The notes below the pieces were generated by a model that ran no database searches, was not told the DNA's origin, and was given only the letters and a program-made list of their open reading frames with translations. The position numbers were made by a program, and so were the translations under genes. From Longimicrobiales bacterium (GTDB lineage: Bacteria > Gemmatimonadota > Gemmatimonadetes > Longimicrobiales > Gaopeijiaceae), in the NCBI GenBank assembly GCA_965202985.1, contig CBDBCF010000002.1, forward strand, positions 638,451 through 702,450: a DNA stretch of 64,000 nucleotides, read 5' to 3'. Position 1 is the stretch's first letter; each line of letters starts with the position of its first letter. Shown here piece by piece: positions 25,588 to 37,001 of this stretch.

Positions 25588-28494
25588 TCAGCTTCCGCCC
25601 AGCGCCGCCCGCTTCTCCGCGAGCGTTTCGATTCTGCGCTCCCAAGCCTCGGCCTTCTCCCGCTCGCGAGCCACGATCTCCGGCGGCGCCTTGGCCGCAA
25701 AGCCGGGGTTGGCCAGACGCGCCCGCGCCCCGTCCAGCCCCGACCGGAGGCGCGCCAGCTCCTTGTCCAGGCGCGCCCGCTCCCGGGCCACATCAATCAC
25801 GCCCTCCAAGGAAAGGAACACCTCCGTGCCGTCCCGCAGCACGGCCCCCGCCCCGGGCGTCCCCGCCGCAGGCTTCGTCCTCTCCACGCGCTCCACGCGC
25901 GCCAGTCGAGCCAGGGCCGCCTCGATTCCCGGCGAAAGCGGTCCCTGGGCGCCGGCGGCCTCGTCGCGGTTGGCCCCGCCGCTCGCGGCCGATACGTGCA
26001 CCACCACCGTTCGCCCTTCGCCCACGCCGTACTCCTTCCGCAGCGCGCGCACCTGCACCACGAGCTCCTGCAACCATGCGAACCGCGTCTCGGCGTCCTG
26101 GTCGGACAGGCCGTCCGCGGCTTCGGGCCACCGAGCAACCGCAAGCGGCCCGTCCTCCTGGCCGCGCTCCGGCAGCCGCGCCCACAGCTCTTCGGTCACG
26201 AACGGCACAAACGGGTGAAGCAAGCGGCAGGCCGCGTCCAGCGCGTGCACCAAGACCGAGCGCGCGGTCTCCCGGCCACTGTCCACGTCGTGCCGTCCTA
26301 GCTGGCCCGTCGGCCCGGCGTTGCCTGATGCGCCGGTGTCGCCAGTCGGCCCTTCCCCAAGCCGGTCCTTGGCCAGCTCCAAGTACCAGTCCGCGAACTC
26401 GCCCCGCACGAAGTCGCGCAGCACCTCCGCGGCCCCGTGGATGCGGAAGCCCTCCAACTCCTCGCCGGCGCGCCGAACCGCGACCTGGAGCCGCGACAGG
26501 ATCCAGCGGTCCTCCAGCCGGAAGCTGCCGGCAACCTCCCCCAGCGGCTGCACGGGCTCGTCGCCCACCTTCATGAGCACGAACCGCCCGGCGTTCCACA
26601 GCTTGTTGACGAAGTTGCGGCCCGGCGCGAACGCGGCTTCCAGGTCCTCGTGGTCCAGGCGGATGTCGGCGCCCACCCCGGCGCTGGCCACCAGCGTGAA
26701 GCGCAGGGCGTCGGCGCCGTAGAGCTCCACGACCTCCAGCGGGTCGATGCCGTTGCCCAGGGACTTGGACATCTTGCGGCCGTGCTTGTCGCGCACGGTG
26801 CCGTGCAGGTAGACCCGCGGGAACGGCGGCTCGCCCATGGCGTAGCAGCCCGCCATGATCATGCGCGCTACCCAGAAGAAGAGTATCTCCGGCGCGGTGG
26901 ACAGCGCATGGCCGGGGTAGAACGCCGCCAAGTCGTCGCTCTCCTCGGGCCATCCGAAGACGGAGAACGGCCACAGCCACGACGAGAACCACGTGTCCAG
27001 CACGTCCGGATCCTGCTCCAGGTCGCTGCCGCCGCACTCGGGACACGCCTCGGGGTCCTCTCGAAGCGCCATGACGGCGTCGCAGCCGCCGCAGTACCAG
27101 ACTGGGACGCGGTGACCCCACCACAGCTGCCGCGAGACGCACCAGTCGCGGATGTTCTCCATCCAGTGCTCGTAGACGCCGGTCCAGCGCTTCGGGACGA
27201 AGGTCACGGCGCCAGCGCGGGCAGCCTCCAGTGCGGGCTCGGCCAAGGGCTTCATGCGGACGAACCACTGCTCGCTCAAGCGCGGCTCCACCACCGTGTC
27301 GCAGCGATAGCACCGGGGCACGGCGTGGCGGTGTCGGTCCCGGCCCGCCAGCAGCCCCTGTCCCTCCAGGGCGGCCAGCACGGCCTCGCGGGCCTCTTCG
27401 CGACTCATGCCCTGGAACGCCGCGGGCGCGTTCTCATTCATGATCGCGCGCTCGTTCATGACGTTCAGCACGTCCAAGTCGGCACGCCCGGCGATCTCGA
27501 AGTCGGCCGCGTCGTGCGCGGGCGTGACCTTGAGCGCGCCCGTCCCGAACTCGGCGCTGGCGTGTTGATCCGCGACCACGGGGATCCGCCGGTCCGCCAG
27601 CGGCAGATCCACGGCGGCCCCGACCAGCGACGCGTAGCGCGGATCGGCCGGACCCACCGCGACGCCCGTGTCCCCCAGCATCGTCTCCGGGCGCGTCGTC
27701 GAGATCGTGAGGTACCACCGGCCGTCGGCCAGCCGCCCCACGCCGCCCGCCCCGGCGGCCCGCGCGGCCTCGGCGTCCTCCTCCCGGCCCGGCGCCAACG
27801 GGTAGCGGATGTGCCAGAGCGAGCCTTCGGATTCGGCCGCCTCGGCCTCTTCGTTGGACAGCGCAGTCAGGCAGCGGGGACACCAGTTGACGACATACTT
27901 GTCGCGATAGATGAGATCGTCGTCGTAAAGTCGCACGAACACTTCTCTTACGGCTCGCGACAAATCCTCTTCCAAGGTGAACCGGGCTCGGGTCCAGTCG
28001 CAACTGCAACCGATGCGCTCGAGCTGGTTCAAGATGCGCCCGCCGGTGCGTTCGACGTGTTCCCACACCTTGTCCACGAAGGCGTCGCGCCCCAGGTCGT
28101 GACGGGTCTTGCCGTCTTGGGCCAAGCGCCGCTCCACGACGTTCTGCGTGGCGATCCCGGCGTGGTCGGTGCCCGGGACCCACAGCGCGGTCCGACCCTC
28201 CATGCGCCGCCATCGCACGATCACGTCCTGAATGGTGTTGTTCAGCCCGTGGCCCATGTGAAGCACGGCAGTCACGTTGGGCGGAGGGATGACGACCACG
28301 AACGGCTGTCCGTCCGACCGGCCCGCATCGTTCTCCGGCGTCGGGCTGCTCCGGGCCGCGTCGGCCGCGGACGCGCCGAAGCAGCCGCTCTCCTTCCACA
28401 GGCGCAAAACGCGGGCTTCGACTTGGCTGGGGTCGAAGGTCGGGGGCAGGCCGGGGGCGGCGTGCGCCGGGCTGGTCGACTCGGTGTGGCTCAT
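25588..28494 (-). CDS. valS: Valine--tRNA ligase
   Basis: ATG 28494. 'PPPNVTAVLHMGHGLN' (HIGH), 'WVPGTDHAGIATQ', 'KMSKSLGN' (KMSKS) and a C-terminal coiled coil. 968 aa. Confidence 0.95.
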   Translation of the reverse strand: MSHTESTSPAHAAPGLPPTFDPSQVEARVLRLWKESGCFGASAADAARSSPTPENDAGRSDGQPFVVVIPPPNVTAVLHMGHGLNNTIQDVIVRWRRMEGRTALWVPGTDHAGIATQNVVERRLAQDGKTRHDLGRDAFVDKVWEHVERTGGRILNQLERIGCSCDWTRARFTLEEDLSRAVREVFVRLYDDDLIYRDKYVVNWCPRCLTALSNEEAEAAESEGSLWHIRYPLAPGREEDAEAARAAGAGGVGRLADGRWYLTISTTRPETMLGDTGVAVGPADPRYASLVGAAVDLPLADRRIPVVADQHASAEFGTGALKVTPAHDAADFEIAGRADLDVLNVMNERAIMNENAPAAFQGMSREEAREAVLAALEGQGLLAGRDRHRHAVPRCYRCDTVVEPRLSEQWFVRMKPLAEPALEAARAGAVTFVPKRWTGVYEHWMENIRDWCVSRQLWWGHRVPVWYCGGCDAVMALREDPEACPECGGSDLEQDPDVLDTWFSSWLWPFSVFGWPEESDDLAAFYPGHALSTAPEILFFWVARMIMAGCYAMGEPPFPRVYLHGTVRDKHGRKMSKSLGNGIDPLEVVELYGADALRFTLVASAGVGADIRLDHEDLEAAFAPGRNFVNKLWNAGRFVLMKVGDEPVQPLGEVAGSFRLEDRWILSRLQVAVRRAGEELEGFRIHGAAEVLRDFVRGEFADWYLELAKDRLGEGPTGDTGASGNAGPTGQLGRHDVDSGRETARSVLVHALDAACRLLHPFVPFVTEELWARLPERGQEDGPLAVARWPEAADGLSDQDAETRFAWLQELVVQVRALRKEYGVGEGRTVVVHVSAASGGANRDEAAGAQGPLSPGIEAALARLARVERVERTKPAAGTPGAGAVLRDGTEVFLSLEGVIDVARERARLDKELARLRSGLDGARARLANPGFAAKAPPEIVAREREKAEAWERRIETLAEKRAALGGS

Positions 28495-28523
28495 GAGGTG
28501 CGGGGAAGGGTTGGCGACGGGGC

Positions 28524-29369
28524 TCAGCGGTTCCGCCGGGGCGTCGCGGGGACCGTGTCGGGCTTGACCTGGACCTGTACCTGCTTGCCGTCGGCCTCCT
28601 CCTCTTGGGCCCTTCGGCGCTCCTCGCGTCGCCGCCTCATGATCTCGACCCGTTCCTTCCAGCTGCGCCGCGCCGCGACCGAGCCCGCCGCCCGGTCGAT
28701 GTCCGCGATCCGGAATGCCATCTCCGCGCGATCGCCGCTGTAGTCCGGCGGCGGACCGAAGCCGAAGGGGAGCGGCACGGTGATCTTGCCCAGATGGATG
28801 CGGCCGGGCGACACGCCCCACTTGTTGCCGTCCTCGTCGGTGCGCGTCCAGTCGAGGGCCGCGCGGGTCCGTTCGGCTTCGGCGACGGCGGAGTCGTGCA
28901 TGGCCTCCAAGGCGATCTTGATCTCGAGTTCGAGGATCTCGTGGGCCGTGAGCTCCACCAGCGCCGGGTCCATGGGCATCCACAGACGGGCGTCGCCGGG
29001 GCGCGAGCGAAGGCGTTCCGCCACCGAGCGGTAGCGGGGCATCGTCCACTCGGGGCCGCCCTCCAGCGCGGGAACCTCGGGCACGACGGCGGGCGCGTCG
29101 GGGGCGTCGATCTCGACCGGGTCCTCGGGCTCTCCGGAGGGGGACGTGCCGATCTCGACGATGCGAACGACCTGCGTGCCGCCGGGGGCCGCCGTCGGAG
29201 CCCGCGCGAAGGGCGGCGGTTCGCCGGGGCCGGGGCCGGTGGCGAACGAATAGGCGATCAGCGCCAGCAGGTGGCCCAGGGCCGACAGCGCCAAGCCCGC
29301 GACCAACGGACGGCGTGCGGCGCGGCGGCGGCGGTCCGGGCTGGGCTGGTCCTCGCCGGGCGGCGTCAT
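28524..29369 (-). CDS. Membrane-anchored hypothetical protein (Pro-rich linker)
   Basis: ATG 29369 (ATGA overlap with the FAH stop). The single TM 'LVAGLALSALGHLLALIAYSF' is followed by a Pro/Ala-rich stretch. No recognised catalytic motif. Confidence 0.55.
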   Translation of the reverse strand: MTPPGEDQPSPDRRRRAARRPLVAGLALSALGHLLALIAYSFATGPGPGEPPPFARAPTAAPGGTQVVRIVEIGTSPSGEPEDPVEIDAPDAPAVVPEVPALEGGPEWTMPRYRSVAERLRSRPGDARLWMPMDPALVELTAHEILELEIKIALEAMHDSAVAEAERTRAALDWTRTDEDGNKWGVSPGRIHLGKITVPLPFGFGPPPDYSGDRAEMAFRIADIDRAAGSVAARRSWKERVEIMRRRREERRRAQEEEADGKQVQVQVKPDTVPATPRRNR

Positions 29370-30022
29370 GCGCGGCTCGCTGCCGGTTCGCGAGCGGCCA
29401 GCGGCTCGCCCGCCTCGACCGGGTTGGTCACCGACGAGCCGCACGAGAGCTCGACGGCCACGACGTCGCCGGGCGCGAGCGGGCCGATCCCGGACGGCGT
29501 GCCCGTGGCCACCAGGTCGCCCTCTTCCAGGGTCATCATGTGCGACGCGAAGCTCACGACGCGCTCGCAGGAGAACGCCATCTCGTCGGCCCTTCCCTGC
29601 TGCCGGACATCACCGTTGACGCGCGTGACCAGCGACAGGCCGGCCGGGTCCACGCCGGCGGCCTCCACTTCGGCGCCCAGCGGGCAGAAGGTGTCCATCC
29701 CCTTGGCGCGGGTCCACTGGCCGTCGGCCCGTTGCAGATCCCGGGCGGTCACGTCGTTCACCGCCGCGACGCCGCCCACGAACGACCAAGCTTGATCCGG
29801 CAAGACGCGACGGCACCGCCGACCGATCACCAACCCGATCTCGCCCTCGAAGTCCACCCGTCCCGCGTCCGGTGGGATGCGCACCGGCGCGCCGCTCGGG
29901 ATCACGGACGACGGCGGCTTGAGGAACAGCAGGGGCTCGCGGGGAACGTCGTTGCCCAGCTCGGCGGCGTGAAGCGCGTAGTTCCGCCCCACGCAGACGA
30001 TCTTGCCGGGGCGGCGCGTCAC
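29366..30022 (-). CDS. Fumarylacetoacetate hydrolase (FAH) family protein
   Basis: 'KIVCVGRNYALHAAELG', 'FLKPPSSV', 'VDFEGEIGLVIG', 'NDVTARDLQ', 'GDLVATGTPSGIG'. Confidence 0.88.
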   Translation of the reverse strand: MTRRPGKIVCVGRNYALHAAELGNDVPREPLLFLKPPSSVIPSGAPVRIPPDAGRVDFEGEIGLVIGRRCRRVLPDQAWSFVGGVAAVNDVTARDLQRADGQWTRAKGMDTFCPLGAEVEAAGVDPAGLSLVTRVNGDVRQQGRADEMAFSCERVVSFASHMMTLEEGDLVATGTPSGIGPLAPGDVVAVELSCGSSVTNPVEAGEPLAAREPAASRA

Positions 30023-30023
30023 G

Positions 30024-30221
30024 CTACCCCGACGACCGGGCGTGGATCGCGGTCCCCACCAGCGCGCCCAGCGCCGCGATGCCCAACAGCGACGCGATCA
30101 CGGTCCACCAAAACCCCACGTCCGAGTGGCCTCCGCCCCAGCCCAGAAACGCCGTGCGGGCGGCCCCCGCGGCCAACGTCAGAAGCGCGAACCCAGCAAG
30201 GAAACCAAGAGCCTTCTTCAT
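30024..30221 (-). CDS. Small two-TM membrane protein
   Basis: 'MKKALGFLAGFALLTLAAGAA...FWWTVIASLLGIAALGALVG'. An alternative TTG start at 30287 overlaps the DinG stop. Confidence 0.45.
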   Translation of the reverse strand: MKKALGFLAGFALLTLAAGAARTAFLGWGGGHSDVGFWWTVIASLLGIAALGALVGTAIHARSSG

Positions 30222-30283
30222 GGGCGATTCCACCGATTCCGGGAGAGGGACGTAACTCCAACCTACCGGTTCCCCGTCGCAGG

Positions 30284-32830
30284 TCAAGCGTGCTCATCGG
30301 GTTGCGAGTCGTAGAACCGCGCGACCTGTGCGCGGGCCTCTTCCCACGGGCCCGTGATGCGGGGCATCGGCGGCAGCGTGTCGAGGATGGCCTTTCCGTA
30401 GCGCTTGACGAGGACGCGGTCGTCCAGGAGCACGACAGCGCCCCGGTCCGTGCGACGACGGATCAACCGGCCCACGCCCTGCTTGAGACGGATCGCGGCG
30501 TCGGGAACCATGAACTCGGCGAAGGCGTTCCGGCCCCGTGCCTCCAGAGCCTCGCTGCGGGCCTCCACCAGGGGATCGGACGGCACTCGGAAGGGCAGCT
30601 TGTGGAGGACCAGAGCGCGGAGCGGGCGTCCGGGAACGTCCACGCCCTCCCAGAACGACGCGGTGCCCAGGAGCACGCCGTCCCCTGCCTCGGTGAAGCC
30701 CTGCAGAAGCCGCGAGCGGCGCCCTTCCCCGTGCACGAACAGCGGCCAACGAAACGCGCCGCCGATCGCCCGGAGCGCCGCCGCCACGGCCCGAAGCGCG
30801 TTGAACGACGTGAACAGGACGAAGAGCCCGCCCCCGGTGATCGACGCCGTGTCGTGGACGACGCTCGCCGTGGCCCGGTGGTTGGCGTCCGCTCGCGCGC
30901 TCCCGCCTCCGGGAGACGGCAGCCCGGAGGGGACGACGATGCGGCTCTGGGAGGCGTAGTCGAACGGCGAGCCCATCACCGCTTCGGCCACGGCCGGGGT
31001 TCGGGACGCCAGGCCCAGGCGCCCCCGGACGTACGCGAAGGAGCCGTTGGCCGTCATCGTGGCGGAGGTCAGCACGGCGGTCTCGACGGTATCGAAGAGG
31101 TGCTCGGCCAGCAGGGGTCCCGGGTCCACGGGCGCCGCCGCGAAGGCCAGGTTGAGCACGGGCGGTCGGCCCCGCGACCTCGCGGAGCGTCTCGGTTCCA
31201 GCCACCGCACCCAGTCGCCTTCGCCGTCGCCCGCCAGCAGACAGCGACAAAGCGCGTCCGCCCCCACCTCCAAGCGCCTCTCGCAGCCCTGGAGGTCCAG
31301 GATGCGGCCCTGGACCGCTTCTCCCAGCCTGTCTTCGTCCTCCAGCGCGCCGTGAAGCAAGTCCAGCTCGCGACGGAGGTCCTTGATCGCCGCCAAGGCC
31401 CGTGTCAGCGACTCGCCGACCCCGGCGTCCTCCGCCGGTTCGCGCCCAGGCGCCGCGCCCAGGCGCACGGCCCCCTGCCCGCCCTGCGCCAGGACCCACG
31501 GCTCGATCATGCCGAAGAACTCGTCCAGCGCCTCGCGAGCGGCATGAAGTCGCCGGCCCGTCTTCGTCTCCAGCTGTTCCTGCAACCAGTTGCCGACCGC
31601 CAAGCCGCCGTCCGCTTGCCGGACCGTCTTGAGCAGGGCGGCTAGCACGCCCTTGTCGGTCCCGCCCCGGTCCAGCCGCGACAGCGCGGCGTAGAGGCCG
31701 GCCCGCGTGGTCTCCATGCCCAGGTGGGTCGTGGCCGCGTCCTCCAAGTGGTGCGCCTCGTCGAAGACGACCCGTTTGTACGACGGCAGCACGGCGGCCT
31801 CGCGGTAGTTCTCGGTGGCGATGCGAACCGCCAGGTCCGAGAAGAACAGCGCGTGGTTGACCACCAGCAGGTCGGCGGCGGCGGCAGCGCGTCGGGAGCG
31901 CTGGTAGTGGCATTCCTGGAAGTGGGGGCACTTCGACCCCAGGCAGGCGTCGCCGTCGCTCCGCACCTCGTCCCACACCTCCCGGGACGGAGTGAAAGGC
32001 AGGTCACCCCTGGACCCGTCCTCGGTGGACTCGAGCCACTCCAGCACGGCCTTCGTCTCTTGGGAGCGGTCGTCGGCAAACAGGTCGGCCGCCGACTGCG
32101 CCGCCAGCTTGGCTCGCCGGATCGAGACGTAGTTGGCCCGCCCCTTCACCAGCGCCCAGTGCACCTTCTCGCCCAGCAGCTCCTCGGCCAGCGCGATGTC
32201 CTTGCCCACCAGCTGTTCCTGCAGGTTGATCGTGTTGGTGGACACGACCGTCCGTTCCTTGTTGCGCGCCGCCCAGCGCGCCGCCGGCACCAAGTACGCC
32301 ATCGACTTGCCGGTGCCGGTGCCCGCCTCCACCAAGCCCGTGCCGCCTTCGTTGAACCGCTCCGTCACGAAGCGGAGCATCTCGCGCTGTCCGGTCCGGT
32401 TCTCGTAGCCGGGCAGCGCGGACAGCGGGCCGCCGGGCGCCAGCAGCTCTTCGAGCGCGTCCGGGTCCAGCGGCTCGATCCGGCGGGGCTGCGGCGGCTC
32501 GACCACGACGTAGAAGTTCGCCGCCCCGTTGTCCACGATCGCCGAGCCCAGGCCCTCGTCGTGGAGACGGCCCGCCACGATCAGGTCGGCGTCCGAGGGT
32601 TCGGTGCAACCCGACGGGTGGTTGTGGATCACGATGCCGCCGGGGGTGGCGTCCCGCGCCGCGGCCAGCACGGCCCCTCGGTTGCCGCGCGCCACGGCCC
32701 TTGGGTTCGCGACGACCCGGTCCGGCGTCACCTCCGCCAGGAACGACACCTCGCGCCCTCCCGCCCTCGCCACCTCGTCCCGGATCGCCCGAGCGGCCTG
32801 CGGGGCCAAGCGAAGAGGCCCCGACCTCAC
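30284..32830 (-). CDS. JAB/MPN (JAMM) metalloprotease domain fused to a DinG/XPD-family DEAH helicase
   Basis: The N-terminal ~125 aa contain 'GGREVSFLAEV' and 'IVIHNHPSGCTEPSDADL' (E...HxHx7SxxD). Then come helicase motif I 'EAGTGTGKS', the Cys cluster 'CLGSKCPHFQEC' and the DEAH box 'VFDEAHHLED'. The C-terminus matches helicase_C_2 ('VLLGTASFWEGVDVPG', 'LPF'). GTG 32830 overlaps the upstream stop. 848 aa. Confidence 0.82.
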   Translation of the reverse strand: MRSGPLRLAPQAARAIRDEVARAGGREVSFLAEVTPDRVVANPRAVARGNRGAVLAAARDATPGGIVIHNHPSGCTEPSDADLIVAGRLHDEGLGSAIVDNGAANFYVVVEPPQPRRIEPLDPDALEELLAPGGPLSALPGYENRTGQREMLRFVTERFNEGGTGLVEAGTGTGKSMAYLVPAARWAARNKERTVVSTNTINLQEQLVGKDIALAEELLGEKVHWALVKGRANYVSIRRAKLAAQSAADLFADDRSQETKAVLEWLESTEDGSRGDLPFTPSREVWDEVRSDGDACLGSKCPHFQECHYQRSRRAAAAADLLVVNHALFFSDLAVRIATENYREAAVLPSYKRVVFDEAHHLEDAATTHLGMETTRAGLYAALSRLDRGGTDKGVLAALLKTVRQADGGLAVGNWLQEQLETKTGRRLHAAREALDEFFGMIEPWVLAQGGQGAVRLGAAPGREPAEDAGVGESLTRALAAIKDLRRELDLLHGALEDEDRLGEAVQGRILDLQGCERRLEVGADALCRCLLAGDGEGDWVRWLEPRRSARSRGRPPVLNLAFAAAPVDPGPLLAEHLFDTVETAVLTSATMTANGSFAYVRGRLGLASRTPAVAEAVMGSPFDYASQSRIVVPSGLPSPGGGSARADANHRATASVVHDTASITGGGLFVLFTSFNALRAVAAALRAIGGAFRWPLFVHGEGRRSRLLQGFTEAGDGVLLGTASFWEGVDVPGRPLRALVLHKLPFRVPSDPLVEARSEALEARGRNAFAEFMVPDAAIRLKQGVGRLIRRRTDRGAVVLLDDRVLVKRYGKAILDTLPPMPRITGPWEEARAQVARFYDSQPDEHA

Positions 32831-34110
32831 GTCTTGAGCTTTTTCTTCTTGGCGGCGGGGAAGAGCACGTTGTTGAGGATGAGCCGGTAGCCGGGCGAGT
32901 TGGGATGGAGCTCCAGGTCGGTGGCTGCGTCGCCGATCTGGTGCTCCGGGTCCTCGGGATCGTGGCCGCCGTAGTAGGTCCACGTGCCCTGGCCGGCGGC
33001 GCCGTGGATGTACTTGGCCCAGCCGCCTTCGGTGGCCAGCTTCACCACGCCCGGCTTCAGGCGGTCCTGGGCGAACGAGGTGGTCAGCCCGTAGAAGTCC
33101 GGCACGACGGCTTCGTGGTTCTGGGTGAGCATGGCCGGAACGGGGTCGAACTTGGCCGAGAACTCGAAGAGCGTGAACGCCCCGAGCTCCTTCCGCCACG
33201 GCGTGTTGACCTGGTGGCCGTCGATGTCCGAGAAGGCGTTGACCGAGGGCGCCGTCTGGACGTGCGCGTCGCGAAACGCCATCGCCGCCTCCCAGTCCAG
33301 CTTGGCGCCGGCGTCGGGGTCGGGTGGCGTGCCGTCCGAGTAGGCCGCCGCGATGTCCACGGGACCCGCCGCCAGGGCCAGCTCCAGCGTCTCGGGGGCG
33401 GAGCACATGGCGAACAGGAAGCCGCCCTCTTCCACGTACCGGCGAATGCGCGCACTCACGGCCTTCTTGAGGGCGGGCACGTCGGAGAAGCCCAGCGCGC
33501 GGGCCACCTCTTCGTTGCGCGCGACCTCCTCTTCCAGCCACGGCGCGCCCGCGTAGGCGATGTAGAACTTGGAGTACTGGCCGGTGAAGTCCTCGTGGTG
33601 CAGGTGCAGCCAGTCGTACCGGCTCACGTCGCCTTCGAGCACCTCCGGGTCCCATATCTCCTCGTAGGGGATCTCGGCGTAGTCCAGGGCCATCGTGACG
33701 GCGTCGTCCCACGGCGCGCTGTTGGGCGGCGTGTAGATCGCGATCTCGGGGGCCTTCTCCAGCACGACCGACTCCATGTTGGAGGACGCGACAACGCCCC
33801 GGATGCGCGCCTCCTCGGCGGGTGCTACGGGCTGCCACGAGACGCCCATCAGCGCCGCCCGCCTCCGCACGCGCTCCGTGTCCGGCAAGAAGAAGGAGCC
33901 GCCCCGGTAGTTGAGCAGCCATTCGGCCCGGCCCCCGTCGGTCAGAACCGAGTACGTCAGTCCGTACGCCTTGAGGTGGTTCGTCTGCGACCGGTCCATG
34001 GGCACCAGGATCGACTGCGCCGAGGCTGCACCGCCCCCGCCGCCGGCGACGGAGGCAAGGAAGCAGGCCAACAACAGCCGGCACGTCGTCTTCACGGGGA
34101 ACTGTCGCAC
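32827..34110 (-). CDS. Secreted conserved hypothetical protein
   Basis: Signal peptide '...CRLLLACFLASVAGGGGGAASAQS'. Conserved-looking blocks 'MDRSQTNHLKAYGLTY', 'YDWLHLHHEDFTGQY', 'GGFLFAMCSA' and a C-terminal 'KKKKLKT'. No function is assignable from sequence alone. Confidence 0.6.
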   Translation of the reverse strand: MRQFPVKTTCRLLLACFLASVAGGGGGAASAQSILVPMDRSQTNHLKAYGLTYSVLTDGGRAEWLLNYRGGSFFLPDTERVRRRAALMGVSWQPVAPAEEARIRGVVASSNMESVVLEKAPEIAIYTPPNSAPWDDAVTMALDYAEIPYEEIWDPEVLEGDVSRYDWLHLHHEDFTGQYSKFYIAYAGAPWLEEEVARNEEVARALGFSDVPALKKAVSARIRRYVEEGGFLFAMCSAPETLELALAAGPVDIAAAYSDGTPPDPDAGAKLDWEAAMAFRDAHVQTAPSVNAFSDIDGHQVNTPWRKELGAFTLFEFSAKFDPVPAMLTQNHEAVVPDFYGLTTSFAQDRLKPGVVKLATEGGWAKYIHGAAGQGTWTYYGGHDPEDPEHQIGDAATDLELHPNSPGYRLILNNVLFPAAKKKKLKT

Positions 34111-34309
34111 CGGTGCAATCTACCGTCCGCGAGGCGCCGGTTCAACGAGCGTGGGAGGCCAGCCGCTGGCCAAGCTGCGAGGACGCGTTCGCCAGGACGC
34201 CTTCGCGGCGACCGACCCCGGTGTTCCTTCCCGAGAAGGCGCGTTTCCTTGCTTCTTCGGTACCGGGGTCCATAGTGTGGCGAACCCAGATCCCCGAAGG
34301 GAGGATGCG

Positions 34310-35590
34310 ATGGAACCGGAGACCGGCTTCTTCGAGGCGCTCGCCAACGTTGTGCCCGAACTACGCAGGCGCACGCGGCGGCGGCGAACCCAACGCCCCC
34401 GGAGGCTCGAACTGAGTCCGGCCTCGGCGGGCCGCTGCCTCGTCCTTGCCTGGCTGACGGCCGCCGGGTGCGGGGACCTGCCGGACGCGCACCCGTCCGA
34501 TGGAAACCCGTTGCCGCTCGTGGGCGGGACGCCGCTCGTGTTGCGTCCGGTCGGCGAGGTTCAGCACGACTTCATGCACGTCACCGATGTCGAAGTGGGT
34601 CCGGAAGGTCGGGTGTTCGTGGCCGATTGGAGCGCCAAATCGGTGTGGGCGGCGACCCCGGACGGCCAGATGATCGGCCAACTGACCGGCGGAGACAGCC
34701 TTTTCTCGTTCAACTCCATTGCGGACATGGCCGTCGCCGGCGACACGCTCTACGTGCTGGACAACGGATTCGACCGCATCCACTTGTTCGCGCTGAACTC
34801 CGAGGGAACGCCCTGGGCCCGGACGATCGCCTTGACCGACCCGGCCTTGGACGCCTTCGGGCGCATTGGAATCGGACCGAACCGGGCGATCATGGTGCAG
34901 GCAAGGCCCCCGTCGGGCGCGACGCCAAATCAGCCGGCCAGGGAGTTCGGCCTTCACCGGGTCGCCGACGACGGCTCTTCGTTGGGGACGCCGTTGCTCA
35001 CGTTGCCGGCCGACGAGATGCTCGTGACCACCAGCGAAGAGTACGGCACCGTCGTTGAACCGATGCCCTTCGGAAAGAAGTCCTTCGTGGTGTTCGGCGA
35101 CGACGGCGCGGTCTTCCACCTTTGGACGGAGAACTCGTCGGTGACCGCGCACGACGCCACCGGCCGTCTCTTGTACACCGTGCCGTTTTCGGAGTCGCCC
35201 GTTCGTTCGGTTGCGCAGCAAGACGTCGACGCCCTCGTCGCGTCCATGGAATCGGAGGGCGGCGGCGGCTTTCTTGCAAAGCTGCGGGCCGACCGGACAG
35301 CCCAGGCGGCCGAGGACGGGCTGTTGCCGGCGTCTTGGCCGACCGCCAAGAACTTGGTCGGCGACGACTTGAGAAGGCTGTGGATCGTCGTGTCCGCCGA
35401 AGGTACGGATCGGGTGCTCGTCGCCGATCTGCGGGCGGTCCGCGACGTTGGCGCGGGCGTACTGCACGAAGGCGCCCTTCCCTTGGGCAGCGACCTTCAC
35501 GCCGTCGCGAACGATCGGGCGTATCTGGCGACGATCGGTCCCGACAACAGACAGCGCGTCGGCATATTCGCCGTCGAATCGCAACCGTGA
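34310..35590 (+). CDS. Beta-propeller-like lipoprotein (same paralogous family)
   Basis: GGGAGG plus 6 nt precedes ATG 34310. Lipobox 'LTAAGC'. Repeated strand-rich blocks ('VGPEGRVFVAD', 'AGDTLYVLD'). The C-terminal 'LPASWPTAKNLVGDDLRRLWIV' parallels the neighbour's 'PPSWPVASGLLADDSNRLWV'. Confidence 0.7.
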   Translation: MEPETGFFEALANVVPELRRRTRRRRTQRPRRLELSPASAGRCLVLAWLTAAGCGDLPDAHPSDGNPLPLVGGTPLVLRPVGEVQHDFMHVTDVEVGPEGRVFVADWSAKSVWAATPDGQMIGQLTGGDSLFSFNSIADMAVAGDTLYVLDNGFDRIHLFALNSEGTPWARTIALTDPALDAFGRIGIGPNRAIMVQARPPSGATPNQPAREFGLHRVADDGSSLGTPLLTLPADEMLVTTSEEYGTVVEPMPFGKKSFVVFGDDGAVFHLWTENSSVTAHDATGRLLYTVPFSESPVRSVAQQDVDALVASMESEGGGGFLAKLRADRTAQAAEDGLLPASWPTAKNLVGDDLRRLWIVVSAEGTDRVLVADLRAVRDVGAGVLHEGALPLGSDLHAVANDRAYLATIGPDNRQRVGIFAVESQP

Positions 35591-35747
35591 ACCGCCGATT
35601 CGCGATACGACCACGTTTCTGGGCGTGCGTCCAGTCTGCGCCGCCGTTGCGACGAGTGTTCGCCGACAAGGTCCTCGGCGAGTCGATCGGCGTCTTTGGC
35701 ACGCCTGCGTTCGTGTTGGAGGCCGTTCTGGCAAAGCCATAAGCCGG

Positions 35748-37001
35748 ATGCCGTCCGGTCGCGCTCGACGTCGCCGGGCCGTCCCGGCTTGCTGGCTGAT
35801 CCTTGTCGGGGCCGCAGGTTGCGACGGGGCCTCAAGGTCGGGCGGCGCGGGATCGGGCGGGGCCGCCGAGTTGGGCGAATCGGTCGCCCTGGGCACGCCC
35901 TTCGTCGAGGGCGCGCCGCTGACCTTCTCGGAGGTTCGCAGCATTCGCCACTCCTTCGGCAGGGTCGCCAGCGTGGCCGTGGGCGGGGACGGCGCCGTGT
36001 ACGTGGGGGACCGTCAAGCGCTCACGGTTTGGCAGTTCGACTCCGCGGGCGTGCTGGTCGACTCCATCGGGGCCGAGGGAGACGGTCCGGGCGATTTTCG
36101 GAACATCACCAGCGTTCAGTTTGTCGGGGATCGCTTGCTCGTCTTCGATGGGTCTCTCAAACGCCTGACTTCTTTCGACGGGAAGGACCCCGGCGATATC
36201 CGAACAACGACGTTCCGAGTACTGCGAGGAACTGCATTTGCATGGGCGATGGACGACGGCCAAGTCGTGGCGGGCGCGCAGTCGGCGCTTGCCGTGGGCC
36301 ACGATACGCCGACGGATTCGACGACGGTTCATCTCGTATCGGAAGGCGGGATCGTCGAGTCGTGGGGCGACACCCTGTTCTCCCTTCCCAGAAACGAATC
36401 CCTGATCTTTAACCGTCCAGGCTTCGTCTGGGCCAGGCCGATGCCGTTCGCGCGTCGCTCATGGGTTCAAGCAGGAAGCGGCGGGACCGTGTTCTACTTG
36501 TGGTCGGGCGCCCCCGAGATTCTGGCGTTCAGCCCGGAGACCTCCGCTTGGGACACGTTGCCGCTGCCGCCGGGACTCGGACGCCCGGTCAAGGACCAGG
36601 CCTACGTCGCCCTCTACGCGTCGATCGATCGAGAAGACCCAAGCCCGGGCCTCACGAAACGGATGATCGCCGAGGCGCGGGCTGCCGGTCGCACGCCACC
36701 GTCCTGGCCCGTGGCGTCGGGGTTGTTGGCGGACGATTCGAACCGACTGTGGGTCACGCTGATCTCCGAAGACGACGTGATCCGGGCGTTGGAAACAGGC
36801 GAGTACGGGTACGGCCCGCAGGACGGAGGCGGTTCCCATCTGCTGGTCTTCGACTTGGCGAACGGGACGACTCACGTGGGGCGCGCACCGGCGCGCGGCA
36901 ACATCGAGGCCGCGAGCGGCGAGCACGTGTACTTGCTGGCAATCGGCCCCAGCGGCGAGGAGTACCTTCGGCAGTTCCGCGTGCGGGCAGGCCCGAGCTA
37001 A
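35748..37001 (+). CDS. Beta-propeller-like lipoprotein (same paralogous family)
   Basis: ATG 35748. Lipobox 'LVGAAGC'. Motifs 'GAEGDGPGDF', 'GDGAVYVGD' and 'DDSNRLWVTL'. Confidence 0.7.
   Translation: MPSGRARRRRAVPACWLILVGAAGCDGASRSGGAGSGGAAELGESVALGTPFVEGAPLTFSEVRSIRHSFGRVASVAVGGDGAVYVGDRQALTVWQFDSAGVLVDSIGAEGDGPGDFRNITSVQFVGDRLLVFDGSLKRLTSFDGKDPGDIRTTTFRVLRGTAFAWAMDDGQVVAGAQSALAVGHDTPTDSTTVHLVSEGGIVESWGDTLFSLPRNESLIFNRPGFVWARPMPFARRSWVQAGSGGTVFYLWSGAPEILAFSPETSAWDTLPLPPGLGRPVKDQAYVALYASIDREDPSPGLTKRMIAEARAAGRTPPSWPVASGLLADDSNRLWVTLISEDDVIRALETGEYGYGPQDGGGSHLLVFDLANGTTHVGRAPARGNIEAASGEHVYLLAIGPSGEEYLRQFRVRAGPS

What the first reader, a model, noticed from the sequence alone, without database searches (positions are those of the whole stretch)
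30284..32830. JAMM/JAB metalloprotease domain fused to a DinG/XPD-type helicase
The first ~125 residues carry a complete JAMM signature, with a Glu in 'GGREVSFLAEV' and 'HNHPSGCTEPSDAD' (HxHx7SxxD). The domain therefore looks catalytically competent rather than a relic. It is fused in-frame to a full superfamily-2 DinG-like helicase, which has motif I GTGKS, the DEAH box and a CxxxxCxxxxxC cluster spaced like three of the four DinG Fe-S cysteines. At the position of the fourth I read 'NYVS', possibly Ser. Known bacterial DinG N-terminal fusions are DnaQ-like exonucleases (Firmicutes). A deubiquitinase/RadC-like isopeptidase on a 5'-3' helicase suggests a different job. One possibility is removal of a protein or peptide adduct from DNA, conceptually similar to the eukaryotic FANCJ helicase plus SPRTN protease pathway for DNA-protein crosslink repair. 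Another is removal of a ubiquitin-like tag. The gene is translationally coupled (GTGA) to an upstream gene for a secreted protein, which is odd for a DNA enzyme.
Basis: partly seen in the sequence, partly recalled or inferred. Interest (0 to 1): 0.65.

Follow-up and report, generated by a model that had tools for sequence, protein, structure and literature searches.

The report
RadC-like JAB domain fused to DinG helicase
This gene really does join an intact zinc-hydrolase (JAB) domain to a DinG-type DNA helicase, but the architecture was described in 2011 and named "RadC-like DinG" in 2025, so this is a new Gemmatimonadota member of a catalogued family whose function has not been tested.

Summary
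Window 30284-32830 (minus strand) is one uninterrupted 848-aa gene. It encodes a compact RadC-type JAB/JAMM domain (E27, H69-N-H71, S79, D82), a short linker, and a complete DinG/YoaA-like Fe-S helicase. The JAB catalytic pentad is kept in 120/121 close orthologues and 45/47 sequences across phyla, and the AlphaFold model is confident (pLDDT 92.6, pTM 0.91).

The architecture is not new. Iyer et al. (2011) reported RadC-JAB::DinG fusions in several phyla and proposed that the JAB is a nuclease. A 2025 review names the subgroup "RadC-like DinG" and says nobody has studied it. I find it in hundreds of species across ten or more phyla, always as a stand-alone gene. No ubiquitin-like, E1/E2, Cas or defence partner is conserved next to it.

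The coupling to the upstream exported protein is real, but it is synteny confined to Gemmatimonadota.

The lineage-specific detail is that the first Fe-S cysteine is an invariant serine in the Longimicrobiales-type clade.

The most likely function is a helicase-delivered zinc amidohydrolase acting on something attached to DNA, favouring a protein or peptide. This is untested, and the nuclease reading remains open.

Interest is low to moderate.

The parts
30284..32830 (-). Complete JAB-DinG ('RadC-like DinG') gene, 848 aa plus TGA stop, GTG start
   Evidence: ORF and translation. Full-length orthologues at 55-98% identity. AF2 model pLDDT 92.6, pTM 0.91.
32495..32830 (-). RadC-type JAB/JAMM domain, residues 1-112 (strand-helix-strand core; helices 10-22 and 80-91)
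   Evidence: Pfam RadC. 32/32 family members hit PF04002. PDB 2QLC RadC at E = 2e-7 by profile. Foldseek top hits are CsRpn11, RadC 2QLC, CSN5, AMSH and AfJAMM. JAB-only AF2 model pLDDT 95.
32750..32752 (-). Glu27, the JAMM general-base glutamate
   Evidence: Kept in 120/121 close orthologues and 46/48 diverse sequences.
32585..32626 (-). H69-N-H71-x7-S79-x2-D82 zinc-site motif (HNHPSG is the RadC-type signature)
   Evidence: H69, H71 and S79 kept in 121/121, D82 in 120/121. The pentad is intact in 45/47 diverse sequences.
32411..32494 (-). Linker, residues 113-140, with two short helices joining the JAB domain to helicase domain 1
   Evidence: AF2 secondary structure. Query residue 137 aligns to position 251 of the Bacillus-type ExoDinG model, just after where the DnaQ exonuclease domain lies in those proteins (position of the exonuclease domain from prior knowledge).
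30284..32410 (-). DinG/YoaA-like SF2 helicase core (HD1, Fe-S, Arch, HD2), residues 141-848, plus stop codon
   Evidence: NCBIfam YoaA, DinG and dinG_rel hits. Foldseek match to E. coli DinG 6FWR at E = 7e-42, TM 0.77 normalised to the target.
32303..32317 (-). Walker A / motif I, GTGKS (172-176)
   Evidence: Invariant in 121/121. K175 kept in 48/48.
32123..32125 (-). Ser236 at the position of the first Fe-S cysteine (NYVS)
   Evidence: Ser in 121/121 orthologues and in 59/59 fused ORFs of L001-L062. Cys in 38/48 diverse sequences and in Gemmatimonadaceae.
31910..31945 (-). C296-x4-C301-x5-C307, the remaining three Fe-S ligands
   Evidence: All three are invariant in 121/121. No other conserved Cys lies in the Fe-S region.
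31751..31762 (-). DEAH box / motif II (357-360)
   Evidence: Invariant in 121/121.
30368..30856 (-). Helicase_C_2 domain (residues 659-821)
   Evidence: Pfam PF13307, E = 8.7e-43.
32827..34110 (-). Context only: conserved exported protein of unknown family (427 aa) whose TGA overlaps the JAB-DinG GTG
   Evidence: No Pfam, NCBIfam, PADLOC or PDB hit. Lies upstream of JAB-DinG in 59/62 and 26/28 Gemmatimonadota loci. Sec- or Tat-like signals and a 4-nt overlap in 26/86 loci.

Best explanation
This is a Gemmatimonadota (Longimicrobiales-type) member of the catalogued but uncharacterised 'RadC-like DinG' family. It is a single housekeeping-type polypeptide. An ATP-driven DinG/YoaA-like Fe-S helicase, presumed to move 5'-to-3' on ssDNA, carries a catalytically intact RadC-type JAB zinc hydrolase at its N-terminus. 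That is the same position where Firmicute ExoDinG carries a DnaQ exonuclease.

What is shown: one ORF; an intact E/HxH/S/D site under purifying selection; intact motor motifs; a JAB fold; no conserved partner genes.

What is inferred: the motor tracks along ssDNA and brings the JAB site to an obstacle or lesion, where a zinc-activated water hydrolyses a bond. My preferred substrate is an amide (peptide or isopeptide) bond of a protein or peptide stuck or crosslinked to DNA. The reason is that the whole JAMM pentad is retained, including the serine that in characterised JAMMs stabilises the carbonyl oxyanion. Every biochemically characterised JAB is an amidohydrolase. I know of no JAB shown to be a phosphodiesterase.

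I put family identity at about 0.95 and the protein-adduct substrate at only about 0.35. The confidence value below refers to the whole mechanistic statement.
For: Single ORF with all motifs. Full-length orthologues share the same start. The JAB pentad is kept in 120/121 close and 45/47 diverse sequences, and the JAB domain is as conserved as the helicase core (72% identity against 62-78%). An exhaustive profile search with the JAB domain finds 692 cluster representatives. At least 96 of the top 146 are demonstrably fused to the helicase, and most of the rest are short proteins that look like fragments. The family occurs in KSB1, Nitrospirota, Geobacteraceae including cultured Geobacter, Geotalea and Geomonas, Spirochaetota, Binatia, Nitrospinota, Poribacteria and others. 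The fold is JAB, and the closest solved structure by sequence is RadC 2QLC. The helicase fold matches E. coli DinG 6FWR. The JAB sits at the position of the ExoDinG exonuclease domain (PMC3239186). The family has been named (PMC11981726).
Against: No biochemistry exists for any RadC-type JAB or for any RadC-like DinG. E. coli radC mutants show normal sensitivity to DNA damage, as cited in PMC11981726. Genomic context gives no clue to the substrate, because no neighbour is conserved across phyla. The published inference from domain displacement favours a nuclease. I could not obtain model coordinates, so I do not know where the JAB site sits relative to the DNA path. Helicase polarity is assumed from E. 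coli DinG and XPD and was not tested.
Confidence: 0.4

Rival explanations
1. The JAB domain is a nuclease or other nucleic-acid hydrolase. It would be functionally equivalent to the 3'-5' DnaQ exonuclease of ExoDinG, so the protein would be a helicase-nuclease that processes DNA ends or flaps (the Iyer-Aravind 'non-homologous domain displacement' argument).
For: The JAB occupies exactly the N-terminal position of the exonuclease in closely related DinG helicases. Query residue 137 aligns to position 251 of the ExoDinG model (PMC3239186). RadC JABs are repeatedly fused to DNA-binding or DNA-acting modules such as HhH, primase and ArdC. Other DinG subgroups carry nuclease domains: ExoDinG, EndoDinG and CasDinG-HNH.
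Confidence: 0.22
2. The JAB is a deconjugating isopeptidase for a ubiquitin-like or other protein tag (Rpn11, CSN5, PfJAMM1 or Bil/Bub-like). It would remove a modifier from a DNA-bound protein or from the helicase's own partners.
For: Minimal archaeal JAMMs that lack Ins-1 and Ins-2 cleave Ubl tags (PfJAMM1 and CsRpn11 are among the closest folds). Bacterial Ubl-DUB structures also appear among the hits (8TYX, BubCD).
Against: No Ubl, E1 or E2 gene is conserved next to JAB-DinG in 62 + 80 + 28 loci. PADLOC finds only generic DinG homology and nothing in the neighbours. The motif is the RadC-type HNHPSG, not the H[ST]HP of Ubl peptidases. The gene sits in a housekeeping block with ValRS and an FAA hydrolase.
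Confidence: 0.07
3. The JAB domain mainly acts as a binding, recruitment or regulatory module. For example, it could grip a C-terminal peptide tail such as that of SSB, replacing the chi (HolC) adaptor that YoaA uses, or it could gate the helicase. Catalysis would be secondary.
For: The helicase core is YoaA-like, and organisms with RadC-like DinG lack HolC (PMC11981726). A pTM of 0.91 suggests the JAB is rigidly docked on the motor. Some fusobacterial versions have lost the zinc ligands, and 2 of 47 here have as well (P0166 and P0275).
Against: Near-universal retention of all five catalytic residues over ten or more phyla is hard to explain without catalysis.
Confidence: 0.15
4. The fusion is an artefact: two adjacent genes were merged by a sequencing or assembly error, or the JAB is a decaying relic.
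For: Databases hold many short 'JAB-only' proteins.
Against: Two such short proteins on long contigs (P0284, P0311) proved to be pieces of frameshifted full-length genes. Over 100 intact fused orthologues exist. Fused ORFs are found in 59/62 Longimicrobiales-type loci and 74/80 loci from other phyla. The JAB is as conserved as the helicase core.
Confidence: 0.01

Closest known systems
RadC-like DinG subgroup (Comput Struct Biotechnol J 2025, PMC11981726; first noted by Iyer, Zhang, Rogozin and Aravind, NAR 2011, PMC3239186)
   Same: The architecture is identical: an N-terminal RadC-type JAB with the E/H/H/D site, then a YoaA-like Fe-S DinG core. The JAB segments of Desulfuromonas and Kuenenia quoted in the review's table share the same motifs (GNEVFF, HNHPSG-x3-PS-x-AD, IVDN). 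No HolC-type partner is present.
   Different: This is a Gemmatimonadota member, a phylum not listed for this subgroup; the review lists Gemmatimonas as plain DinG. The first Fe-S cysteine is an invariant Ser in this clade, whereas the two RadC-like DinG rows I read in the review's table are marked '4C'. The gene is embedded in a phylum-specific operon-like block behind an exported protein.
RadC / YicR (PF04002; structure 2QLC)
   Same: Same JAB subtype, with the HNHPSG...PS..D signature and the conserved Glu. It is the best PDB sequence match and a top fold match. Function is equally unknown.
   Different: RadC proteins have an N-terminal HhH (UPF0758) DNA-binding domain and no motor. Here the JAB is N-terminal and the DNA-binding partner is a helicase. 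Outside the zinc motif, sequence similarity is weak (Pfam match covers residues 56-91 only).
ExoDinG (Bacillus / S. aureus DinG with an N-terminal DnaQ-like 3'-5' exonuclease; PDB 9II8, 8ZEF)
   Same: The helicase core is closely related (NCBIfam PRK08074 469 bits; Foldseek E = 4e-30). An accessory hydrolase sits at the same N-terminal position.
   Different: The accessory domain is a JAB (deaminase-like fold, zinc) rather than an RNase H-fold DEDD exonuclease.
E. coli YoaA-chi and DinG
   Same: SF2 XPD-family core with an Fe-S domain, an Arch domain and a DEAH box. YoaA is the best NCBIfam model (523 bits) and DinG 6FWR is the best structural match.
   Different: The score is below the YoaA and DinG equivalog cut-offs (680 and 598-789). 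There is an extra JAB domain. A 3-Cys plus Ser cluster site replaces the 4-Cys site.
Eukaryotic FANCJ helicase plus SPRTN protease (DNA-protein crosslink repair)
   Same: This is a conceptual analogy only: an XPD-family 5'-3' helicase working with a DNA-dependent zinc metalloprotease.
   Different: SPRTN is a zincin (HExxH) protease, not a JAB, and it is a separate polypeptide. No homology or experimental link exists. This is a 'works like' hypothesis, not membership.

Membership tests
JAMM/MPN+ (JAB) metallohydrolase superfamily | E-x(n)-H-x-H-x7-S-x2-D zinc-site motif | tested here: met
   E27, H69, H71, S79 and D82 are present. They are conserved in 120/121 close and 45/47 diverse sequences.
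JAMM/MPN+ (JAB) metallohydrolase superfamily | JAB / deaminase-like alpha-beta fold | tested here: met
   AF2 JAB-only model has pLDDT 95. The top 50 Foldseek PDB hits listed are almost all JAB/MPN-fold proteins, including CsRpn11, RadC, CSN5, AMSH and AfJAMM, and none is a nuclease (TM about 0.5).
JAMM/MPN+ (JAB) metallohydrolase superfamily | Zinc binding and (iso)peptidase activity | not testable with these tools
   Needs purified protein.
RadC-type JAB domain (PF04002) | Pfam score at or above the gathering threshold, plus the HNHPSG signature | tested here: met
   22.4 bits against a cut-off of 22.1 for this protein. 32/32 diverse family members hit PF04002, best E = 5.7e-9. Profile search hits 2QLC at E = 2e-7.
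RadC/YicR protein (NCBIfam PRK00024 / TIGR00608) | Full-length RadC architecture (N-terminal HhH domain plus C-terminal JAB) and an equivalog score | tested here: not met
   25.4 bits against a cut-off of 180. Only residues 57-91 match, and no HhH domain was detected. It shares the domain but is not a RadC orthologue.
DinG/XPD-family SF2 helicase | Walker A, DEAH box, Helicase_C_2, Arch and Fe-S insertions in HD1 | tested here: met
   GTGKS, DEAH and PF13307 at E = 8.7e-43. Foldseek match to 6FWR at E = 7e-42.
DinG/XPD-family SF2 helicase | Four-cysteine 4Fe-4S site | tested here: not met
   There are three Cys (296, 301, 307) plus Ser236. Ser is invariant in this clade. Whether a cluster still forms cannot be tested here.
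DinG/XPD-family SF2 helicase | 5'-3' DNA unwinding and ATPase activity | not testable with these tools
   Inferred from homology only.
YoaA (NCBIfam NF053712 equivalog) | Score at or above 680 bits; HolC (chi) partner | tested here: not met
   523.5 bits in two stretches. HolC is reported absent from organisms with RadC-like DinG (PMC11981726); I did not test this here.
ExoDinG (dinG_rel TIGR01407 / PRK08074) | N-terminal DnaQ-family exonuclease domain | tested here: not met
   The alignment starts at model positions 244-251, after where the exonuclease domain lies in ExoDinG proteins, and scores are below the cut-offs.
RadC-like DinG subgroup (PMC11981726) | N-terminal RadC-like JAB domain with conserved E, H, H, D fused to a YoaA-like DinG core | tested here: met
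   The JAB segments of the review's exemplars from Desulfuromonas and Kuenenia quoted share the family motifs.
CasDinG / type IV CRISPR-associated helicase | Cas (Csf) neighbours, no Fe-S cysteines | tested here: not met
   PADLOC typeIV_DinG hits reflect core homology only. The neighbours have no PADLOC hits, and Fe-S cysteines are present. Only the immediate neighbourhood was examined.

The most novel reading that the evidence does not exclude
JAB-DinG is a self-contained bacterial DNA-protein-crosslink (or DNA-bound roadblock) repair enzyme. The Fe-S helicase would translocate 5'-3' up to a protein adduct and the tethered RadC-type JAB would proteolyse it. That would make it a one-polypeptide analogue of FANCJ plus SPRTN. 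By extension it would reveal the long-sought biochemical activity of the whole RadC family.
Probability: 0.25. Interest if true: 0.75.

Novelty: new member of a known kind. Interest (0 to 1): 0.3.

Why it matters
RadC-type JAB domains occur in most bacterial lineages, yet none has a demonstrated activity. The old DNA-repair assignment for RadC has been questioned. A version hard-wired to a DNA motor, with the zinc site conserved over ten or more phyla, is probably the cleanest system for finding out what RadC-type JABs cut: protein, peptide adduct or nucleic acid. If the substrate is protein on DNA, it would fill a gap in what is known about bacterial repair of DNA-protein crosslinks. The present window adds little to that. 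It extends the family to Gemmatimonadota, shows the family is a stand-alone housekeeping gene, and shows a clade in which one Fe-S ligand is serine.

Tried and rejected
1. A word-indexed homology search with the JAB segment alone and with a diverse JAB profile returned almost only short fragments. It was useful for taxon names but not for architecture.

2. The listing of cluster members gave almost no taxonomy for diverse representatives and no entry for the upstream protein.

3. The search for related loci with the 32-sequence profile failed because no stretch was conserved enough. A 6-sequence subset worked.

4. I looked for a conserved partner gene by all-against-all clustering of six-frame ORFs in 80 loci from other phyla. 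The only recurrent cluster (24/80) is generic sigma-54 response regulators at varying positions. The next (13/80) is a radical-SAM gene confined to Geobacteraceae. I therefore rejected a cross-phylum operon partner.

5. The idea that stand-alone versions of this JAB exist gained no support. Two short database proteins on long contigs that I examined are frameshifted pieces of full genes; the other short hits were not examined individually.

6. I tested whether Gemmatimonas-type DinG lacks the JAB, as tabulated in the review. Close relatives carry it in frame, so JAB loss in Gemmatimonadales is rejected.

7. The promoter and terminator scan of 29900-34600 gave nothing above shuffles. I did not pursue a LexA-box search because no Gemmatimonadota consensus was at hand.

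8. The upstream 427-aa protein has no hit in Pfam, NCBIfam, PADLOC or PDB sequences.

10. Literature searches for any biochemical activity of RadC or RadC-like DinG found none.
Full report
**1. What is in the sequence**

On the minus strand, 30284-32830 is a single open reading frame of 848 codons. It starts with a GTG that overlaps the TGA of the preceding 427-aa ORF: plus strand 32827-32830 reads tcac, which is GTGA on the coding strand.

- Glu27 in GGREVSFLAEV.
- H69-N-H71-PSGCTEP-S79-DA-D82.
- Walker A GTGKS (172-176).
- DEAH (357-360).
- C296-x4-C301-x5-C307.
- Ser236 in NYVS.

Pfam reports a RadC-like JAB domain at residues 56-91, 22.4 bits, just above the 22.1 cut-off. It also reports DEAD, weak DEAD_2, and Helicase_C_2 at E = 8.7e-43. 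NCBIfam's best models are YoaA (523 bits, cut-off 680) and two DinG models (469 and 392 bits). All are below their equivalog thresholds, and the RadC models match only around the zinc motif. The window has 69% G+C, and this is its only JAMM motif.

**2. It is one gene, and the JAB domain is under selection**

A full-length homology search returned more than 100 orthologues of 822-939 aa. They share 55-98% identity, and all but a few align over 97-100% of the query. Every hit that carries a taxon name is from Gemmatimonadota.
- 117 of the 121 aligned sequences, the query included, begin at the same residue, which supports the GTG start.
- In this set E27 is kept in 120/121, H69, H71 and S79 in 121/121, and D82 in 120/121.
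- In a set of 48 sequences that includes 42 distant cluster representatives, the full pentad is intact in 45 of 47 non-query sequences.
- The JAB domain is as conserved as the motor domains: 72% mean identity against 62-78% for HD1, Fe-S and HD2, and 45% for Arch.

AlphaFold2 with a 70-sequence alignment gives pLDDT 92.6 and pTM 0.91 for the whole protein, and pLDDT 95 for the JAB alone. Foldseek places the full model next to E. coli DinG (6FWR, E = 7e-42), S. aureus ExoDinG, XPD and CasDinG. It places the JAB model next to the Caldiarchaeum Rpn11 homologue, Chlorobium RadC (2QLC), CSN5, AMSH, AfJAMM and PfJAMM1. Almost all listed hits are JAB/MPN-fold proteins and none is a nuclease. By sequence profile, the closest solved structure is RadC 2QLC at E = 2e-7. 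All 32 diverse family members hit Pfam RadC. The HNHPSG form of the motif is the RadC signature, distinct from the H-S/T-H of Rpn11 and CSN5.

**3. It is already known as an architecture**

[quoted passage not shown] They note that these helicases are closely related to versions fused to a 3'-5' exonuclease. From non-homologous domain displacement they infer that the JAB might be a nuclease.

A 2025 review (PMC11981726) defines a subgroup called "RadC-like DinG". It models the Desulfuromonas soudanensis protein with zinc, notes a YoaA-like core and the absence of HolC, and finds PfJAMM1 and CsRpn11 as the closest folds. [quoted passage not shown]

The family is catalogued but remains uncharacterised. 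My literature searches found no biochemical work on it or on RadC's activity.

**4. How widespread it is, and in what context**

An exhaustive HMMER search of 1.84 billion cluster representatives with the JAB-domain profile found 692 hits at E <= 1e-3 and 468 at E <= 1e-10. Among the top 146:
- 41 are full length (803-921 aa).
- 55 are fragments that still include helicase sequence.
- 24 end at the JAB domain, as contig-edge fragments would; the remaining 26 short hits were not resolved.

Two "JAB-only" proteins on long contigs turned out to be pieces of frameshifted full genes in long-read assemblies.

They come from KSB1, Nitrospirota, Nitrospinota, Geobacteraceae and Desulfuromonadales (including cultured Geobacter argillaceus, Geotalea toluenoxydans, Geomonas azotofigens and G. 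anaerohicana), Spirochaetota, Binatia, Poribacteria, Dependentiae, Deferribacteres and others. Source names in another search add Sumerlaeota and Desulfobacteraceae.

I clustered all six-frame ORFs in 80 such loci. No neighbour is shared across phyla. The largest non-self cluster (24/80) is generic sigma-54 response regulators at varying positions and strands. The next (13/80) is a radical-SAM gene restricted to Geobacteraceae. No ubiquitin-like, E1/E2 or defence gene recurs, and no cas gene was seen in the loci examined. PADLOC gives only generic DinG homology for the helicase and nothing for its neighbours. The gene therefore behaves as a stand-alone chromosomal housekeeping gene.

**5. The coupling to a secreted protein**

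Within Gemmatimonadota the order is exported 427-aa protein, JAB-DinG, small two-TM protein, FAA-family hydrolase, 306-aa protein, ValRS.
- The upstream protein lies directly before JAB-DinG in 59 of 62 Longimicrobiales-type loci and in 26 of 28 Gemmatimonadaceae/Gemmatimonadales loci.
- At 58-83% identity it is better conserved than the helicase.
- It has a variable Sec-like or twin-arginine-like signal (for example RRDFL) followed by an invariant LLVPMD..Q..HLKAYG.
- It has no match in Pfam, NCBIfam, PADLOC or PDB sequences.
- The 4-nt stop/start overlap occurs in 26 of 86 loci. Elsewhere the gap is 2-270 nt.
- In another genome it follows a DUF4159/TPR cluster, whereas the window has divergent beta-propeller genes upstream. 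The pair therefore stays together even when the surroundings change.
- It is absent from JAB-DinG loci of every other phylum examined.

I read this as lineage-specific synteny or co-transcription rather than a functional module. The persistence of the pair is unexplained and is recorded below.

**6. Lineage-specific detail in the Fe-S site**

Position 236 corresponds to the first cluster cysteine, NY[LVI]C in 38 of 48 diverse sequences.
- It is Ser in 121/121 close orthologues and in 59/59 fused ORFs of L001-L062.
- No other cysteine is conserved in the Fe-S region. His308 is common in this clade (115/121), where other lineages have Phe.
- Gemmatimonadaceae keep Cys.
- A KSB1/"Cytophagia" clade instead has Ser or Thr at the second ligand.

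Whether these proteins carry a Ser- or His-ligated 4Fe-4S cluster, a 3Fe-4S cluster or no cluster cannot be decided here.

**7. A correction to the literature**

The review tabulates Gemmatimonas aurantiaca C1A7T8 as a plain DinG starting MTLGPYG. Its closest relatives in the genome collection (75-82% identity) encode an intact JAB domain in the same frame immediately upstream. That entry is probably an N-terminally truncated gene model, and RadC-like DinG appears to be the standard form across Gemmatimonadota.

**8. How it most likely works**

What is shown:
- An intact motor.
- An intact, selected zinc-hydrolase site.
- A confident single-chain model (pTM 0.91), which suggests the JAB is docked on the motor.
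- The JAB in the place of the ExoDinG exonuclease. Query residue 137 aligns to position 251 of the ExoDinG model.
- No partner genes.

What is inferred: the helicase loads on ssDNA, translocates (5'-3' by analogy with DinG and XPD), and presents the JAB site to whatever stops it.

I favour an amide substrate, meaning a protein or peptide stuck or crosslinked to DNA. The complete JAMM pentad, including the oxyanion serine, is retained. Every JAB with known chemistry is an amidohydrolase, and all structural neighbours are peptidases. I give this about 0.35-0.4. The published nuclease hypothesis rests on domain displacement and on RadC's DNA-related fusions, and I give it about 0.2. A Ubl-deconjugating role lacks any contextual support (about 0.07). 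A mainly binding or regulatory role, for example substituting for the chi/HolC adaptor, is possible (about 0.15) but fits poorly with catalytic-residue conservation.

**9. Verdict**

The thing is real and functionally unsolved, but it is a new member of a kind described in 2011 and named in 2025. What is specific to this window is modest: the Gemmatimonadota membership, the Ser-for-Cys Fe-S ligand, and the conserved pairing with an unknown exported protein. Interest is about 0.3. It would rise sharply only if the protease-on-DNA hypothesis were demonstrated.

Noticed in passing
window 32123-32125 (Ser236), 31910-31945 (C296/C301/C307); loci L001-L062, L066-L094, L146-L165: The first Fe-S cysteine is an invariant Ser in the Longimicrobiales-type clade (121/121 and 59/59), with His308 frequent next to the last Cys. 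Gemmatimonadaceae and most other phyla keep Cys. A KSB1/'Cytophagia' clade has Ser or Thr at the second ligand instead. This suggests recurrent 3-Cys variants of the DinG cluster site.
   Followed up: partly
window 32827-34110 (minus strand): A highly conserved (58-83% identity) exported protein of 427 aa has no Pfam, NCBIfam, PADLOC or PDB match. It has a variable Sec- or Tat-like signal followed by an invariant LLVPMD..Q..HLKAYG. It lies immediately upstream of JAB-DinG across Gemmatimonadota (59/62 and 26/28 loci), with a 4-nt overlap in 26/86 loci. Its function is unknown, and the reason for the persistent pairing is unexplained.
   Followed up: partly
window about 25588-34110 (minus strand): A conserved same-strand block runs exported 427-aa protein, JAB-DinG, small two-TM protein (about 30024-30287), FAA-hydrolase family protein (29366-30022), 306-aa protein (28524-29444), ValRS (about 25588-28400, inside the 25588-29049 ORF). 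It is kept in most Longimicrobiales-type loci (44-59 of 62 for each gene).
   Followed up: partly
loci L146-L148, L152, L161, L165: Close relatives (75-82% identity) of Gemmatimonas aurantiaca C1A7T8, tabulated in PMC11981726 as a plain DinG starting MTLGPYG, encode an intact JAB domain in frame just upstream. The UniProt or KEGG gene model is probably N-terminally truncated, so the review's subgroup assignment for Gemmatimonadales is probably wrong.
   Followed up: partly
loci L063 (8001-10633) and L064 (8001-10526): Database 'JAB-only' proteins of about 160 aa on long contigs are the first pieces of JAB-DinG genes. Frameshifts in long-read metagenome assemblies have broken each gene into 4-5 called ORFs (RadC, DEAD, ..., Helicase_C_2 in a row).
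   Followed up: yes
loci L177-L225 (for example L177, L178, L194, L203, L217): Helicase cores at 33-39% identity to this one occur without any detectable JAB coding sequence upstream, in Chloroflexota, Verrucomicrobiota, Planctomycetota and some Spirochaetota. The JAB is therefore a modular addition or loss within one DinG clade.
   Followed up: no
window 34111-34160 (minus strand): Upstream of the 427-aa ORF there is a weak sigma-70-like pair: TTGAAC, 17 nt, TAGATT. It ends 6 nt before the GTG start, which would imply a leaderless or near-leaderless transcript. It scores below the scan threshold (8/12) and I did not test it further.
   Followed up: no
window 34361-37001 (plus strand): Two divergently oriented ORFs have weak beta-propeller signatures (NHL, SGL, DUF5128, Kelch; E = 6.5e-4 to 0.025). 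They replace the DUF4159/TPR cluster that precedes the 427-aa gene in another Longimicrobiales genome (L065).
   Followed up: no
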